A stretch of 31,493 nt of DNA from Candidatus Brocadiaceae bacterium (GTDB lineage: Bacteria > Planctomycetota > Brocadiia > SM23-32), in NCBI GenBank assembly GCA_030615435.1, contig JAUWZH010000001.1:1-31493 (forward strand), read 5' to 3'. The position numbers were made by a program, and so were the translations under genes. Of the stretch, positions 1,868-5,321 are shown one piece after another (the first letter of the stretch is position 1; every line of letters begins with the position of its first letter). The notes below the pieces were generated by a model. It saw nothing but the letters and a program-made list of their open reading frames with translations, made no database searches and had not been told where the DNA came from.

Positions 1868-3022
1868 ATGAGGATCCATCGCAAGGACCTTATGGGATTC
1901 GTTGTCGTGGTGACGGTGCTGCTGTTGGGTTGCGAGATGGTGTGCGGGCGGCTGGCCGGGCGCGAGATATCCGAACCGCGGCCCACAGCGCGGGCGGGTA
2001 AGGTCATTGATCCAGCCAACATCCAGCTCGACCTGGAAGCGGAAGGGTTGAAAGTGTGGTGGCGGCAGGACATCGGGCAAGTCGCCGGAGGCAAGAATCT
2101 CAGACATATCTACTTGCTGGACAACCTGCTGGCGGCGGAGACGCTTGACGGGACCCTGTTCTACTTCGATGCGACCACGGGGGTCTGGACCGGCATCACG
2201 CGCCTGAAGTCCTCTCTGCTTGCGCCCCCGGCGATCCACGAGAAGACCCTGTATGCGGTCTCCGGGCGCGCCCTGCTGATGGTCAATCGCGAATCCGGTC
2301 TGATTGAGAAGCGTCTGCTCGCGCAGATGCCGGTCTCCTGCCAGCCCCTTCCGTTCTACGACTTCCTCATCCTGAGCGGCGGGAACGGGGACATAGTCTG
2401 CCTGGATCCGCAAGAGGACGGCAGACGCATATGGCGGGTCAGAGCCGGCGGCTCAGTTGACGAACCTCCGCTGCTCAGAGATGCACGCATTTACGCGGTC
2501 GGCTACAAAGGGAAGGTAGTGGCGATTCCCGTGCACACAGGGATCGTGCGCTGGGACTGGAGGCCAAAAGCCCCGTCCAAATTGATCTCCGGCCTGGCAC
2601 TGGCCGAGGGCTATCTCAGCGTGGGAGATAACAGGGGATTCGTTTACCGCCTGACGGCAGAAGACGGCATCTTCGTGTGGAAGTACCCGGCTGGCGCGCC
2701 CGTTGTGGCCACTGCGCCCATCGGCGAAAAGCTCCTGGTATTCACCCACCGTGGCGGGGTCCTTTGCCTGGATGTCGCCGGAGTGGAGCCTGAGCTTCTG
2801 TGGAAGCATCCCGACGGCCTGAAGCTCATCGCCACGGGAAAACGCGACGTCTACATGCTGACCTCCGATCGCTGCGTGACGTGCGTCTCTCTGAAGAGTG
2901 GCAAGGAAAAATGGCGCCTGCCGCTGGCCGAAGACTGCGCCGTCGTGTCCGAGCCCTCTGAACCTGCTTTCTACGTGTCGCAGGCCCGCGGCGCCATAAT
3001 GGCCATCAGGGAACTGGATTAA
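1868..3022 (+). CDS. PQQ-like beta-propeller repeat lipoprotein (BamB-like)
   Basis: SD GGAGGA at 1855-1860. Hydrophobic N-terminus ending in lipobox LLGC. Repeated Trp-docking units (GRRIWRVRA, GIVRWDWRP, GIFVWKYPA, SGKEKWRLPL). Confidence 0.75.
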   Translation: MRIHRKDLMGFVVVVTVLLLGCEMVCGRLAGREISEPRPTARAGKVIDPANIQLDLEAEGLKVWWRQDIGQVAGGKNLRHIYLLDNLLAAETLDGTLFYFDATTGVWTGITRLKSSLLAPPAIHEKTLYAVSGRALLMVNRESGLIEKRLLAQMPVSCQPLPFYDFLILSGGNGDIVCLDPQEDGRRIWRVRAGGSVDEPPLLRDARIYAVGYKGKVVAIPVHTGIVRWDWRPKAPSKLISGLALAEGYLSVGDNRGFVYRLTAEDGIFVWKYPAGAPVVATAPIGEKLLVFTHRGGVLCLDVAGVEPELLWKHPDGLKLIATGKRDVYMLTSDRCVTCVSLKSGKEKWRLPLAEDCAVVSEPSEPAFYVSQARGAIMAIRELD

Positions 3023-3248
3023 GGTCCCGGTTGCTGCCGTCCGCTCGGTTTCGTCTCGGGGCCGGCATGGCTGTGGCAACTCGATCCCGTTGAGGGCGGT
3101 TGGCGGGAATGCGGGACGGACCCTCCCCACGAGGCGCGCCCTCATGCGGCCCTCCGAGATTGCCCGCAACTACGCCGCTGGACCGCCCAGGTCCCATTCG
3201 ACGGCGCTCTCAGCGTAGCGTAGAACCACCCGCATGCCGGAAGCATGG

Positions 3249-3282
3249 AAAAACCCCGCCTACCACAAAAGGCGGGGCTTTT
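3249..3282 (-). terminator. Intrinsic terminator, best for the minus-strand histone transcript and possibly bidirectional
   Basis: Perfect 8-bp stem CCCCGCCT (3254-3261) / AGGCGGGG (3270-3277) with an 8-nt loop. T5 follows on the minus strand and CTTTT on the plus strand. Confidence 0.75.
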
Positions 3283-3447
3283 CTACGTGCCTTCAAGGCG
3301 GCCCCCGAACCGCCAAATACTGTAACCGCCCCGGAAAAACTCCTCAGGGCCGGTCCGTCTACAGATCGTCGCAAGTGACCACCGTGCCAAGGCTCCCAAT
3401 GCCCCCTTGGGAGGCCGGCAGCAGGGGCGAACCGGGGATTTGCGCCC
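3283..3447 (-). ncRNA. Candidate structured RNA or long structured 3' UTR between the histone stop and the terminator
   Basis: No credible ORF. Several stems visible (GGGCG/CGCCC, CTCCCA/TGGGAG, GGCGG/CCGCC) and ends that can pair (CTGCTGCC/GGCACGTAG). Family not identified. Confidence 0.3.
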
Positions 3448-3642
3448 TTACACGTCTTTCGCCTGAACTGTCTTCCGGCCGTTCGCCTGGGCGCGCTCCG
3501 CCGCTCTGTCAAGGCATTCGTAGAGGCTCTCGTTGGCCGCTTCCAGCACTTCCGCCGAACACATGAGGCCCTTCGACTTGATGTAGGCCTTCGCCTTAGA
3601 ACTGACTACCAGCATCTCTCTGCACTCCCCGCTCTTGGCCAT
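3448..3642 (-). CDS. Bacterial histone-fold protein (Bd0055/HBb-like single histone fold), 64 aa
   Basis: MAKSGECREMLVVSSKAKAYIKSKGLMCSAEVLEAANESLYECLDRAAERAQANGRKTVQAKDV. Has LVVxSKxKxxIK (alpha1), a long alpha2 and the histone L2/alpha3 signature A-x-x-x-G-R-K-T-V-x-x-x-D. ATG at 3642 with SD GGAGG upstream. Confidence 0.85.
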   Translation of the reverse strand: MAKSGECREMLVVSSKAKAYIKSKGLMCSAEVLEAANESLYECLDRAAERAQANGRKTVQAKDV

Positions 3643-3705
3643 AAAAAAACCTCCCAATCCTTGAAAAAAGGTCTACCGAAAAAGCCCGCTTGCGACGTTC
3701 CATGG

Positions 3706-3733
3706 ATATTATCACCTGTACGAGCCGAGTCAA
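3706..3733 (-). promoter_or_regulatory. Sigma70-type promoter of the histone gene
   Basis: Minus strand TTGACT (3733-3728), 16-nt spacer, TAATAT (3711-3706). Confidence 0.6.
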
Positions 3734-4009
3734 GCGCAAAATCGGCGAAAACAGGGAATTTCGGCAGGAATCGCGCATCTCGCGCCTGCTGAGGCACGCC
3801 ACTGTGGCCTGGCGCCCCCCTTGGCCGGGGAAAGGCGCTTGGAAAATGAACGACGGAAGGTCGACTGAAAGTCAGAGGATCGGGAATCGCCTCAGGCGCT
3901 TCTGTGTCGCGTGCGCTGTCCCGGTTTGCAGGCGCGAGCGCGGTGCACTAAACTAATGAAGCGGGCTCGCAAGGCGGGGGAAAACAGCGCCGGCAGCGGG
4001 GACGGAGCC

Positions 4010-5011
4010 ATGTCGGAGCAGGGAGAAAAGCTGACGCGGCGAGGTTTCCTGGCTTACGCCGCAGCCTCTGGAGCGGCGTTGGCGGGCCTGCGCGCACTGT
4101 CGCGCTGGCAGAGGCCTTTCGTGCTGAGGGGGCACGCCCCCTCGCAAATGCGCCCCGGGTTGGCGATCGTTCACGGAAGCGCTCCTTTGCCCGCCCGGGA
4201 GGCGGAACTGGTCGGGAGAATGACGCGCTCGGCGGTCGCAGCGCTGGGAGGGATGCAGAAACTCGTCCGGCCGGGCTCCACCGTGATCGTCAAGCCCAAC
4301 ATCGCCTGGGTGCGCTCCCCCGAGCTCGCCGCCAACACGAATCCCTGGGTGGTGTCGGCGATCGTGCAGATGTGCCGGGAGGCGGGGGCGCGCACCGTGA
4401 GGGTGATGGACCGCACCATCTCTCGGAACCCCCGCCCCTCCTACGAGGCGAGCGGCATCGAAAAGGCCGCCGCGGCAGCCGGGGCCGAGGTGGCTTACGT
4501 GGACGAGGCGCGGTTCGTTGAGGTTGAGATCCCCGGCGGTTTCGTGCTGAAGAGGTGGCCCTTCTGCGAAGAGTTCGTCAGCGCCGACGAGTGCGACGTG
4601 CTGATCAACGTGCCGATCCTCAAGGACCACGGCACGAGCCGCCTGACCATGGGCCTGAAGAATGCTTTCGGCATGGTCGGCGGCGAGCGGGGCGAGCTGC
4701 ATCGCCGGATTCACAGGAAAATCCCCGACCTGCACCGCGTGCTCAGGGTGGACCTGACGGTGCTGGACGCATACCGGGTGCTGCGCAAGCACGGGCCGAC
4801 CGGGGGGCGGCTGGAGGATGTGGATAACTCGCCCGATGGAGCACGACGCATCGTGGCCGGCACCGACCCCGTCGCGGTGGATGCCTACGGGGCCTCGCTG
4901 TTCGGCTACGGCCCGGACGAGATAGGGTTCGTCCAGCACGCCGAGGATGCCGGACTCGGGAAAGCGGACTGGCGTTCCCTCCTTCTCCACGAAGGGCAAA
5001 TTAGCCGCTGA
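4010..5011 (+). CDS. DUF362 domain protein with twin-arginine (Tat) signal
   Basis: ATG at 4010 after GGAG. LTRRGFL followed by a hydrophobic stretch. DUF362 motifs VIVKPN, TNPWVV, INVPILKDH, TMGLKNAFG and DPVAVD. Confidence 0.8.
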   Translation: MSEQGEKLTRRGFLAYAAASGAALAGLRALSRWQRPFVLRGHAPSQMRPGLAIVHGSAPLPAREAELVGRMTRSAVAALGGMQKLVRPGSTVIVKPNIAWVRSPELAANTNPWVVSAIVQMCREAGARTVRVMDRTISRNPRPSYEASGIEKAAAAAGAEVAYVDEARFVEVEIPGGFVLKRWPFCEEFVSADECDVLINVPILKDHGTSRLTMGLKNAFGMVGGERGELHRRIHRKIPDLHRVLRVDLTVLDAYRVLRKHGPTGGRLEDVDNSPDGARRIVAGTDPVAVDAYGASLFGYGPDEIGFVQHAEDAGLGKADWRSLLLHEGQISR

Positions 5012-5321
5012 GGCTCGCGGAATACGGACAGGCCGCCTCGACTGCGAAAAGCACGCTCTGCTGCACTTACCTTTCTCTCCGGGCAGCCCATCGGTCGCCC
5101 GATGCCACAGCGGCCCTCCCGAGAGGCCGACTGGCAGAGTTCCGCCTTCGCGAGTGCGGCGAAGCCTCGGCGGAGGAGCCTGGTGTGTCCTTTCGCCGCT
5201 CGCGGGGAGGGCACGTGGGCATGCCGCAAGGCCCCCTGATGCAGGGGCCGGCAGCAGGCACGCCGCCGTTCTTCCTCGGCAAAAAATGGGCTCAGCCCGA
5301 ACGTTCATTGCCGAGAATTCC

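What the first reader, a model, noticed from the sequence alone, without database searches (positions are those of the whole stretch)
3448..3733. Stand-alone bacterial histone gene with a complete expression unit
Seen: a 64-aa basic/amphipathic ORF with LVVSSKAKAYIKSKG ... SAEVLEA ... AQANGRKTVQAKDV, a near-consensus promoter, a GGAGG SD and a terminator. Established: the RKTVxxxD L2-alpha3 signature defines histone folds. From memory, the pattern closely tracks Bdellovibrio Bd0055 (LVVTSKVKKLIKEKG...SAE...AKADGRKTVMARD), a characterised nucleoid-associated bacterial histone. Inference: an abundant chromatin protein in a probable planctomycete, a phylum with condensed nucleoids where histone-based packaging is not experimentally established to my knowledge. 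It has three Cys (ECRE, LMCS, YECL) that could add redox or metal sensitivity, and alpha3 ends right after the Asp, which would limit tetramer/hypernucleosome stacking.
Basis: partly seen in the sequence, partly recalled or inferred. Interest (0 to 1): 0.8.

Follow-up and report, generated by a model that had tools for sequence, protein, structure and literature searches.

The report
Planctomycete face-to-face bacterial histone gene
This small stand-alone gene of an uncultured marine-sediment planctomycete does encode a bacterial histone, but of the four-subunit, DNA-wrapping Leptospira HLp type already catalogued in this phylum, so it is a sound but ordinary find. The one less ordinary item is a conserved pairing between the two ends of its mRNA.

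Summary
The 64-codon ORF (window 3642-3451, minus strand) is real. It has a conserved sigma-70-type promoter and a GGGAGG ribosome site, and it is monocistronic.

- **Sequence and fold:** it matches the solved bacterial histones. HLp of Leptospira perolatii is best (E 3e-12; model TM 0.97, rmsd 0.6 A). Bdellovibrio HBb/Bd0055 is second.
- **Tetramer features:** it keeps the three HLp tetramer residues (R50, N54, R56). A four-copy model scores 0.88 against 0.00 for the best control and reproduces the HLp dimer-dimer interface.
- **Tree:** it lies inside a Brocadiia-labelled planctomycete clade, apart from HBb-like rows.

It is therefore a face-to-face (FtF) alpha3-truncated histone, not a Bd0055-type dimer.

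The family is published for Planctomycetota. It was found in 184 of 401 sampled genomes of the phylum and in 22 of 24 of the window's own family. This scan has reported it in at least eight other genomes.

Two of the three Cys sit at positions where Cys is common in the family (C28, C43), and there is no metal-site geometry. Expression could not be shown.

New side observation: in this Cys-bearing subclade the first bases of the mRNA pair with the 3' UTR. The helix covaries across 10 aligned lineages (an 11th keeps it with a bulge) and recalls the B. subtilis hbs mRNA.

The parts
3451..3642 (-). Histone CDS, 64 aa (P0001); the stop codon follows at 3450-3448
   Evidence: matches HLp, HBb and HTkC by sequence and by fold.
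3650..3655 (-). Shine-Dalgarno GGGAGG, 7 nt before the ATG
   Evidence: AGGAGG-type site conserved in relatives.
3706..3733 (-). Promoter: -35 TTGACT (3733-3728), 16-nt spacer with TG (3714-3713), -10 TAATAT (3711-3706)
   Evidence: 0.1 expected in shuffles; conserved in about 20 relatives.
3734..3743 (-). Conserved 'gattttgcgc' just upstream of the -35 box; a possible UP-like element
   Evidence: 'gattttgc(c/g)c' precedes TTGACA in most clade members. Its function is inferred.
3689..3700 (-). 5' arm of the long-range helix (GAACGUCGCAAG). It starts 6 nt after the -10 box, so at about +1 of the mRNA
   Evidence: (inverted repeat I2).
3361..3375 (-). 3' arm of the long-range helix (CUUGCGACGAUC, weaker extension to 3361), 73-87 nt after the stop
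3391..3416 (-). GC-rich hairpin in the 3' UTR with no T run
   Evidence: Read; it also appears in the fold.
3248..3283 (.). Bidirectional terminator-like hairpin with T runs on both strands. It is the likely 3' end of the histone transcript and of the convergent BamB-like gene
   Evidence: I1. The weak sub-threshold Rfam 'leader' hits here are terminator look-alikes.
1868..3022 (+). Convergent neighbour: PQQ_2/BamB-like beta-propeller protein
   Evidence: the same neighbour is seen in relatives.
3911..5011 (+). Divergent neighbour: DUF362 protein with a twin-arginine-like N-terminus (the true start may be later)
   Evidence: the same neighbour is seen in relatives.

Best explanation
The gene encodes a face-to-face (FtF) alpha3-truncated bacterial histone of the HLp type.

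Proposed mechanism:
- Two chains form the usual histone handshake dimer.
- Two dimers join face to face. The contact uses the end of alpha2 (R50, N54), loop 2 (R56) and the one-turn alpha3 (K62-V64).
- DNA is bound without sequence preference around the rim of the tetramer. The contacts are the S15-K16 helix ends, K18 and K22 of alpha1, and the L1/L2 bridge (C28, A30, K57, T58). The R56-D63 clamp holds this bridge in place.
- It most likely serves as a general nucleoid-associated protein alongside two HU-family proteins.

Shown here: the fold, the family placement, the conserved residues, the predicted oligomer interface, the conserved promoter and ribosome site, and persistence in the lineage.

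Inferred: DNA wrapping, abundance and the role in the cell.
For: - **Sequence:** HLp 9qt0 E 3.3e-12, HBb 8cmp/8fvx about 2e-8 to 5e-8, HTkC 9f2c 1.5e-4.
- **Monomer model:** pLDDT 89.5, helices 14-23, 30-53 and 61-63.
- **Fold search:** HLp TM 0.97, rmsd 0.6 A; HTkC 0.90; HBb 0.82-0.87.
- **Tetramer residues:** HLp R49, N53 and R55 (PMC12701072) are R50, N54 and R56 here. They are invariant in the 15 close homologues and present in 79, 75 and 86 of 87 singlets.
- **Four-copy model:** score 0.88, best of 3 controls 0.00. That mark was reached by 20 of 30 proteins solved as pairs of one chain and by 1 of 23 solved as single chains. One copy is touched along the whole chain. Another is touched at 49-50, 53-54 and 62-63, which is the HLp interface shifted by one residue.
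- **Tree:** the protein sits in a 99/99 clade of Brocadiia-labelled histones. Rows with D at position 54, the HBb-like state, fall outside.
- **Persistence:** 22 of 24 genomes of the own family, and 184 of 401 (121 of 243 high-quality) in the phylum.
- **Other nucleoid proteins:** one histone gene and two HU-family genes in the own genome.
Against: - No experiment and no expression data. No RNA run was listed as holding the stretch, and nothing from three small metatranscriptomes of the same study, one of them from the same sample, laid on it.
- The tetramer score may come from the model's memory of the solved HLp and HTkC tetramers. It also lies outside the calibration of the test, which used two copies.
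- HLp S52, T61 and F63 are A53, K62 and V64 here.
- Two HLp DNA contacts differ: T27 is C28 and T56 is K57.
- Net charge is only about +2.
- Pfam and NCBIfam histone models score below their cut-offs.
Confidence: 0.7

Rival explanations
1. It works like HBb/Bd0055: a stable dimer that bends DNA, or coats it, without forming tetramers.
For: It shares the RKTVxxxD motif, the K16/K18/K22 lysines and 42% identity with HBb. Three of the six HLp interface residues differ: A53, K62 and V64. The tetramer model may be recalled from solved relatives.
Against: HBb has S and D where HLp and this protein have R and N. Schwab et al. state that bacterial dimers lack these two residues. The protein is closer to HLp in sequence and in fold. 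HBb-like rows fall outside its clade.
Confidence: 0.2
2. It is a histone-fold protein with a specialised role, for example a local regulator or a partner of another protein, and not a general chromatin protein.
For: Two HU-family genes are present. Net charge is low. Schwab et al. caution that not all prokaryotic histone-fold proteins need be global organisers.
Against: It has a strong conserved promoter and ribosome site. It is single-copy and nearly universal in its family. It has no extra domain and no operon partner. Its characterised relatives HLp, the L. interrogans histone and HBb are abundant nucleoid proteins.
Confidence: 0.08
3. The cysteines make it a redox- or metal-switched histone.
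For: C28 sits at the position of HLp T27, a DNA-backbone contact. A tail Cys recurs in the clade, and 8 relatives carry an N-terminal CGxCG motif.
Against: The window's protein has no CxxC. C43 is a buried core position, otherwise L, M or I. C28 alternates freely with T and S. C7 is in a disordered tail. Nothing was tested.
Confidence: 0.1

Closest known systems
HLp, face-to-face histone of Leptospira perolatii (PDB 9QT0/9QT1/9QT2; PMC12701072), and its essential, abundant L. interrogans orthologue
   Same: About 64 aa made of the histone fold alone, with a one-turn alpha3 and a short alpha2. Identity is 46%, with TM 0.97. It shares the tetramer residues R/N/R, the RD clamp, the S-K helix-end motif and the alpha1 lysines, and it is a stand-alone gene.
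   Different: Interface residues are A53, K62 and V64 where HLp has S52, T61 and F63. L1 has Cys where HLp has Thr. L2 reads RKTV, not RTTV. The host also has HU-family genes, which Leptospira is reported to lack (PMC12701072). The SMC/MAP neighbourhood of Leptospira is absent. Nothing about this protein has been measured.
HBb / Bd0055, bacterial dimer histone of Bdellovibrio bacteriovorus (PDB 8CMP, 8FVX, 9EZZ; PMC10627809, PMC11317129)
   Same: The same alpha3-truncated fold, the RKTVxxxD motif, the LVV-SK-K start of alpha1 and 42% identity. It also coexists with HU.
   Different: HBb lacks the R and N of the tetramer interface and is a dimer that bends DNA. The window's protein keeps both residues and clusters away from HBb-like sequences.
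HTkC, archaeal FtF histone of Thermococcus kodakarensis (PDB 9F2C), and the Asgard FtF histones
   Same: The fold (TM 0.90) and the R/N/R interface residues. In the tree, Asgard sequences are among the nearest relatives outside the planctomycetes.
   Different: Identity to HTkC is 34-36%. The Asgard sequences carry a two-residue insertion at the start of alpha2.
The 14-bp 5'/3'-UTR interaction of the B. subtilis hbs (HU) mRNA (PMC5737220)
   Same: A long-range helix joins the 5' leader to the 3' UTR of a short, strongly translated mRNA for a nucleoid protein.
   Different: The sequences are unrelated, and the phylum and protein family differ. Here the 5' arm lies at the very 5' end of the transcript. 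No cleavage or stability data exist. The own genome encodes RNase E/G, RNase Y and RNase III, but no RNase J-type domain was found.

Membership tests
Histone fold superfamily | Helix-loop-long helix-loop-helix fold | tested here: met
   The model has helices 14-23, 30-53 and 61-63. The top 9 PDB fold matches are prokaryotic alpha3 histones, and the following ones are nearly all histones and histone-fold proteins such as TAFs and NF-Y.
Histone fold superfamily | L2 RKTV motif and the Arg-Asp clamp | tested here: met
   R56-K57-T58-V59 and D63. T58 and D63 are invariant in 87 relatives.
Histone fold superfamily | Handshake dimer | tested here: met
   In the model only. One copy contacts another over residues 9-64, score 0.88 against 0.00 for the best control. 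No experiment.
Pfam PF00808 (CBFD_NFYB_HMF) and NCBIfam archaea_histone | Score over the curated cut-off | tested here: not met
   17.2 bits against 21.4, and 17.6 against 50. None of the close relatives carries a precomputed Pfam domain either, so these models seem to miss this short family.
alpha3-truncated histones (Schwab et al. 2024) | alpha3 of 3-4 residues and a shortened alpha2 | tested here: met
   alpha3 is residues 61-63 and the chain ends at 64. alpha2 is 24 residues.
Face-to-face (FtF) histones | Conserved interface residues (FtF R48 and N52; HLp R49, N53, R55) | tested here: met
   R50, N54 and R56.
Face-to-face (FtF) histones | Confident predicted tetramer with two dimers joined through alpha3 and the end of alpha2 | tested here: met
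   The four-copy model has a second interface at 49-50, 53-54 and 62-63 with expected error under 8 A. The result may come from memory of solved relatives.
Face-to-face (FtF) histones | Tetramer in solution and DNA wrapping (about 60 bp for HLp) | not testable with these tools
   Needs SEC-MALS, crystals and single-molecule assays.
Bacterial dimer histones (HBb type) | Absence of the FtF interface R and N; sequence clustering with HBb | tested here: not met
   Both residues are present. Rows with D at position 54, the HBb-like state, fall outside its clade. The score to HBb is lower than to HLp.
5'/3'-UTR closed mRNAs (hbs type) | Long-range helix between leader and 3' UTR, supported by covariation | tested here: met
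   Over 10 aligned lineages, 88% of cells pair, against 80.5% in column shuffles (0 of 1000 reach it) and 42-51% when slid. Six of 14 columns show changes on both sides. The alignment was anchored on the helix itself.
5'/3'-UTR closed mRNAs (hbs type) | Effect on RNase cleavage or mRNA stability | not testable with these tools
   No transcript data.

The most novel reading that the evidence does not exclude
In this Cys-bearing subclade of planctomycete histone genes, the first nucleotides of the mRNA pair with a site 45-90 nt after the stop codon. The whole short message is thereby closed into a loop. The helix would be a selected post-transcriptional device that shields the 5' end from RNase E/G or RNase Y, or that creates an RNase III site. 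That would tie histone output to mRNA stability, as in B. subtilis hbs. I found no report of such a device for a histone gene or in Planctomycetota in the papers I searched.
Probability: 0.45. Interest if true: 0.5.

Novelty: new member of a known kind. Interest (0 to 1): 0.3.

Why it matters
The protein is one more clean example of FtF histones as a persistent, vertically kept part of planctomycete genomes. About half of the sampled species of the phylum carry one, and nearly all of this family do. No member from this phylum has been studied at the bench, so any cultured carrier would be a good test of whether the condensed planctomycete nucleoid is histone-based.

The mRNA-closing helix, if real, would be a second and independent case of a nucleoid-protein mRNA controlled through 5'/3' end pairing.

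Tried and rejected
- **Expression evidence.** Two run searches and one read-laying found the stretch only in a DNA run of a marine sediment metagenome (word depth about 6). Three small RNA runs of the same study, one of them from the same sample, held nothing. This is no evidence of silence.
- **Rfam.** Only sub-threshold terminator look-alikes at 3207-3352.
- **Locus search with the wide alignment A2.** It failed for lack of a conserved stretch, so A1 and A3 were used instead.
- **RNAduplex on whole UTRs.** It timed out, then gave uninformative sprawling structures. An ungapped-helix scan replaced it.
- **TTG start at 3657.** Rejected: it overlaps the ribosome site and has none of its own.
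- **Helix arms as a dispersed repeat or mobile-element ends.** Rejected. The motif occurs at control frequency in five genomes, and the DUF362 / histone / BamB-like gene order is conserved.
- **Helix as a DNA-level or antisense feature.** The sense strand scores clearly better in 3 of 8 loci and about equally in the rest (within 3 points, two of them slightly favouring antisense). This is suggestive, not decisive.
- **Where the helix was not found.** It is absent from the nearest relative (P0002 contigs, where a 586-aa gene has been inserted downstream) and from the Ser-type clade members.
- **A second histone.** None was found in the 85%-complete genome.

Full report
**1. The observation**

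The minus strand carries an ORF of 64 codons from ATG 3642 to 3451, with the stop at 3450-3448. An in-frame TTG at 3657 would add five residues. It overlaps the GGGAGG ribosome site (3655-3650) and has no site of its own, and homologues begin at the ATG-equivalent position.

The promoter scan finds a single site in 3100-4000: TTGACT, 16 nt, TAATAT (3733-3706), with a TG extension. Shuffles give 0.1 such sites. The promoter is phylogenetically conserved. About 20 related loci show 'gattttgc(c)c-TTGACA-N16/17-TAnnAT' some 85-100 nt before the ATG, together with an AGGAGG site.

A GC hairpin without a T run lies at 3416-3391. A hairpin with T runs on both strands lies at 3248-3283 and is shared with the convergent gene.

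The gene is monocistronic. It sits between a convergent PQQ_2/BamB-like gene and a divergent DUF362 gene. This gene order recurs in contigs of close relatives.

**2. What the protein is**

Pfam and NCBIfam histone models hit only below their cut-offs. A search of solved structures by sequence is clear, however:

| Solved protein | PDB | E-value |
|---|---|---|
| HLp, Leptospira perolatii | 9QT0 | 3.3e-12 |
| HBb/Bd0055, Bdellovibrio | 8CMP, 8FVX | 1.6e-8 to 4.5e-8 |
| HTkC, Thermococcus | 9F2C | 1.5e-4 |

An AlphaFold model built on 87 relatives has pLDDT 89.5. Its helices are 14-23, 30-53 and a one-turn 61-63, and the first five residues are disordered. Foldseek ranks HLp first (TM 0.97, rmsd 0.6 A, 46% identity). 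HTkC follows at 0.90 and HBb at 0.82-0.87. Archaeal and eukaryotic histones come next. The histone fold with a truncated alpha3 is therefore confirmed.

**3. Which kind of bacterial histone**

Schwab et al. (PMC11390915) split alpha3 histones into face-to-face (FtF) tetramers and 'bacterial dimers' such as HBb. The dimers lack two interface residues, R48 and N52.

Hu et al. (PMC12701072) solved HLp. Its tetramer is held by R49, S52, N53 and R55 of one chain against T61, F63 and R55 of the other. [quoted passage not shown]

The alignment places R50, N54 and R56 of the window's protein on these three residues. HBb has S and D at the first two. The three residues are invariant in the 15 closest homologues. 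They occur in 79, 75 and 86 of 87 singlet relatives.

A four-copy complex model scored 0.88, with the best of 3 controls at 0.00. That mark was reached by 20 of 30 proteins solved as pairs of one chain and by 1 of 23 solved as single chains. The job lies outside that calibration, which used two copies, and it used my own alignment. In the model the scored copy touches one partner along residues 9-64, which is the handshake dimer. It touches another partner at 49-50, 53-54 and 62-63, which is the HLp interface shifted by one residue. Because HLp and HTkC tetramers are solved, this shows likeness and not binding.

A maximum-likelihood tree of 87 rows puts the protein, as sister of L004, inside a 99/99 clade of 24 planctomycete histones, mostly from MAGs labelled Brocadiia or Brocadiaceae. 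Rows with D at position 54, the HBb-like state, fall outside. Only 71 columns were used, so deep forks are weak.

I therefore file the protein as an FtF (HLp-type) histone and not as a Bd0055-type dimer.

**4. DNA-binding surface and cysteines**

The HLp DNA contacts are A13, S14, K15, K17, K21, T27, G29, T56 and T57. They correspond here to S14, S15, K16, K18, K22, C28, A30, K57 and T58. S15, K16, K18 and K22 are kept in most relatives.

- **C28** takes the place of HLp T27. Across 87 relatives this position is C in 27, T in 26 and S in 16.
- **C43** takes the place of HLp L42, a dimer-core residue. Elsewhere it is L in 29, M in 17 and C in 14.
- **C7** lies in the disordered tail.

C28 and C43 are therefore ordinary states for this family, and there is no CxxC in this protein. 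A tail Cys does recur in the clade, and eight relatives start with M-(T/S/A)-C-G-x-C-G. The redox or metal idea stays a low-probability lead for the clade and is not a finding for this gene.

**5. Distribution and context**

The nearest genomes are MAGs labelled Brocadiia or Brocadiaceae. Next come Phycisphaerae, Sedimentisphaerales and Pirellulales, then Leptospira and Asgard archaea. In all, 301 matching stretches in the collection of species-representative genomes encode a relative.

A profile of the close homologues finds a match in:
- 22 of 24 other genomes of the window's family; the two without a match are 66% and 72% complete;
- 184 of 401 evenly drawn genomes of the phylum, and 121 of 243 high-quality ones.

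The window's genome is 2.63 Mb and 85% complete, and it comes from a marine sediment metagenome. It has one histone gene and two HU-family genes. In this it resembles Bdellovibrio more than Leptospira, which is reported to lack HU.

The literature already reports FtF and dimer histones in Planctomycetota and their 'phylogenetic persistence' there. I found no experimental study of one. This scan has reported the same kind in at least eight other genomes, with the same verdict.

**6. Expression**

No RNA run was listed as holding the stretch. Three small metatranscriptomes of the same study, one of them from the same sample, laid nothing on it. Abundance is inferred only from the strong conserved promoter and ribosome site and from the characterised relatives.

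**7. A side finding: the two ends of the mRNA pair**

*In the window.* The window holds an inverted repeat, 3364-3375 against 3689-3700. It is 12 nt long, 92% complementary, and the arms are 313 nt apart. In the sense of the mRNA the 5' arm starts 6 nt after the -10 box, so at about +1. The 3' arm lies 73-87 nt after the stop, upstream of the terminator hairpin. Taken alone the window's helix is not significant: 20 of 200 shuffles reach its score.

*In relatives.* The homologous helix, with core GCAAG/CUUGC, is the best 5'-UTR/3'-flank helix in L004, L018, L023, L025, L089, L090, L096 and L124. Between 0 and 4 of 100-200 shuffles reach the score in all of these except L089, where 22 of 200 do. 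L117 carries the same pair as L025, probably as its metagenome copy. The helix is present in weaker or bulged form in L092 and L098. All these proteins have Cys in loop L1.

*Covariation.* Ten lineages were aligned on the core.

| Measure | Observed | Column shuffles | Slid registers |
|---|---|---|---|
| Cells that pair | 88% | 80.5% (0 of 1000 reach it) | 42-51% |
| Columns with changes on both sides | 6 of 14 | mean 3.9 (32 of 1000 reach it) | 2-4 |
| Covariation score | 0.311 | 0.197 (0 of 1000 reach it) | 0.06-0.16 |

The changes include G-C to A-U at the column just after the core.

*Folding.* The helix is part of the minimum-energy fold in 6 of 8 modelled transcripts. It is also in the centroid fold of the window's full predicted transcript.

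*Alternatives.* The motif is not a dispersed repeat. Sense-strand pairing beats antisense clearly in 3 of 8 loci and is about equal in the rest.

*Caveats.* The alignment was anchored on the helix. The sequences are related. Transcript ends are predicted, not mapped. The nearest relative (P0002) and the Ser-type clade members lack the helix.

*Precedent and reading.* The closest precedent is the 14-bp 5'/3'-UTR interaction of the B. subtilis hbs (HU) mRNA, which modulates RNase Y cleavage (PMC5737220). The window's genome encodes RNase E/G, RNase Y and RNase III. No RNase J-type domain was found. My reading, at about 45%, is that the helix closes the mRNA and protects its 5' end. An RNase III processing stalk is the main alternative.

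**8. Verdict**

- The protein is a new member of a known, published and repeatedly seen family.
- The mRNA end-pairing is the only element that I did not find described.

Noticed in passing
window 3689-3700 and 3361-3375 (minus strand); also L004, L018, L023, L025, L089, L090, L096, L124, L092, L098: A conserved, covarying helix joins the first bases of the histone mRNA to its 3' UTR (core GUCGCAAG / CUUGCGAC). It is seen only in the subclade whose histones have Cys in loop L1. It recalls the hbs mRNA 5'/3'-UTR interaction of B. subtilis.
   Followed up: yes
window 3706-3743 (minus strand) and the upstream regions of L004-L026: The promoter is conserved across about 20 species: 'gattttgc(c)c' directly before TTGACA, then 16-17 nt, then TAnnAT. 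The upstream block might be an UP element or an operator.
   Followed up: partly
L021, L022, L110, L111, L114, L119, L121, P0019: Eight close relatives begin with M-(T/S/A)-C-G-x-C-G, a CxxC motif in the N-terminal tail. The window's protein has a single Cys there (C7). Tails of a tetramer might share a metal ion or form disulfides. ZZ histones are a precedent for zinc-binding N-termini.
   Followed up: partly
tree: L041, L054-L083 (Promethearchaeota) beside L042, L053 (Scalindua) and L060: Asgard archaeal FtF histones group (97/76) with those of anammox planctomycetes (Scalinduaceae) and not with other archaea in this sample. This hints at transfer between sediment dwellers. The support rests on 71 columns only.
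   Followed up: partly
L042 and L053 (Scalindua loci): A different 5'-UTR/3'-flank complementarity, (taa)cttttttgata against tatcaaaaagg(tta), lies at similar positions (-58 and +101) in both Scalindua histone loci. In L053, 0 of 60 shuffles reach its score; in L042, 3 of 60 do.
   Followed up: no
P0017, P0018, P0021, P0022, P0024, P0025 and others: Many representatives of 115-150 aa match the 64-aa query twice. These are tandem doublets of this short histone type, distinct from single-fold genes.
   Followed up: no
L027, L032-L034, L036, L037, L043-L047 (Phycisphaerae, Sedimentisphaerales and Pirellulales loci): Relatives with the RRSTVKPQDL ending carry Lys/Ala-rich N-terminal tails of 10-25 residues. 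The window's protein has none. Earlier reports of this scan say such tails are already known.
   Followed up: no
L085-L088 (P0002 contigs), 3471-5231: In the nearest relative a 586-aa gene without Pfam hits is inserted between the histone gene and the BamB-like gene. In that relative the 5'/3' helix is not recognisable.
   Followed up: no
G000 contig C16: 7339-7602 and 10770-11327: One of the two HU-family genes lies about 3 kb from the RNase Y gene in the window's genome.
   Followed up: no
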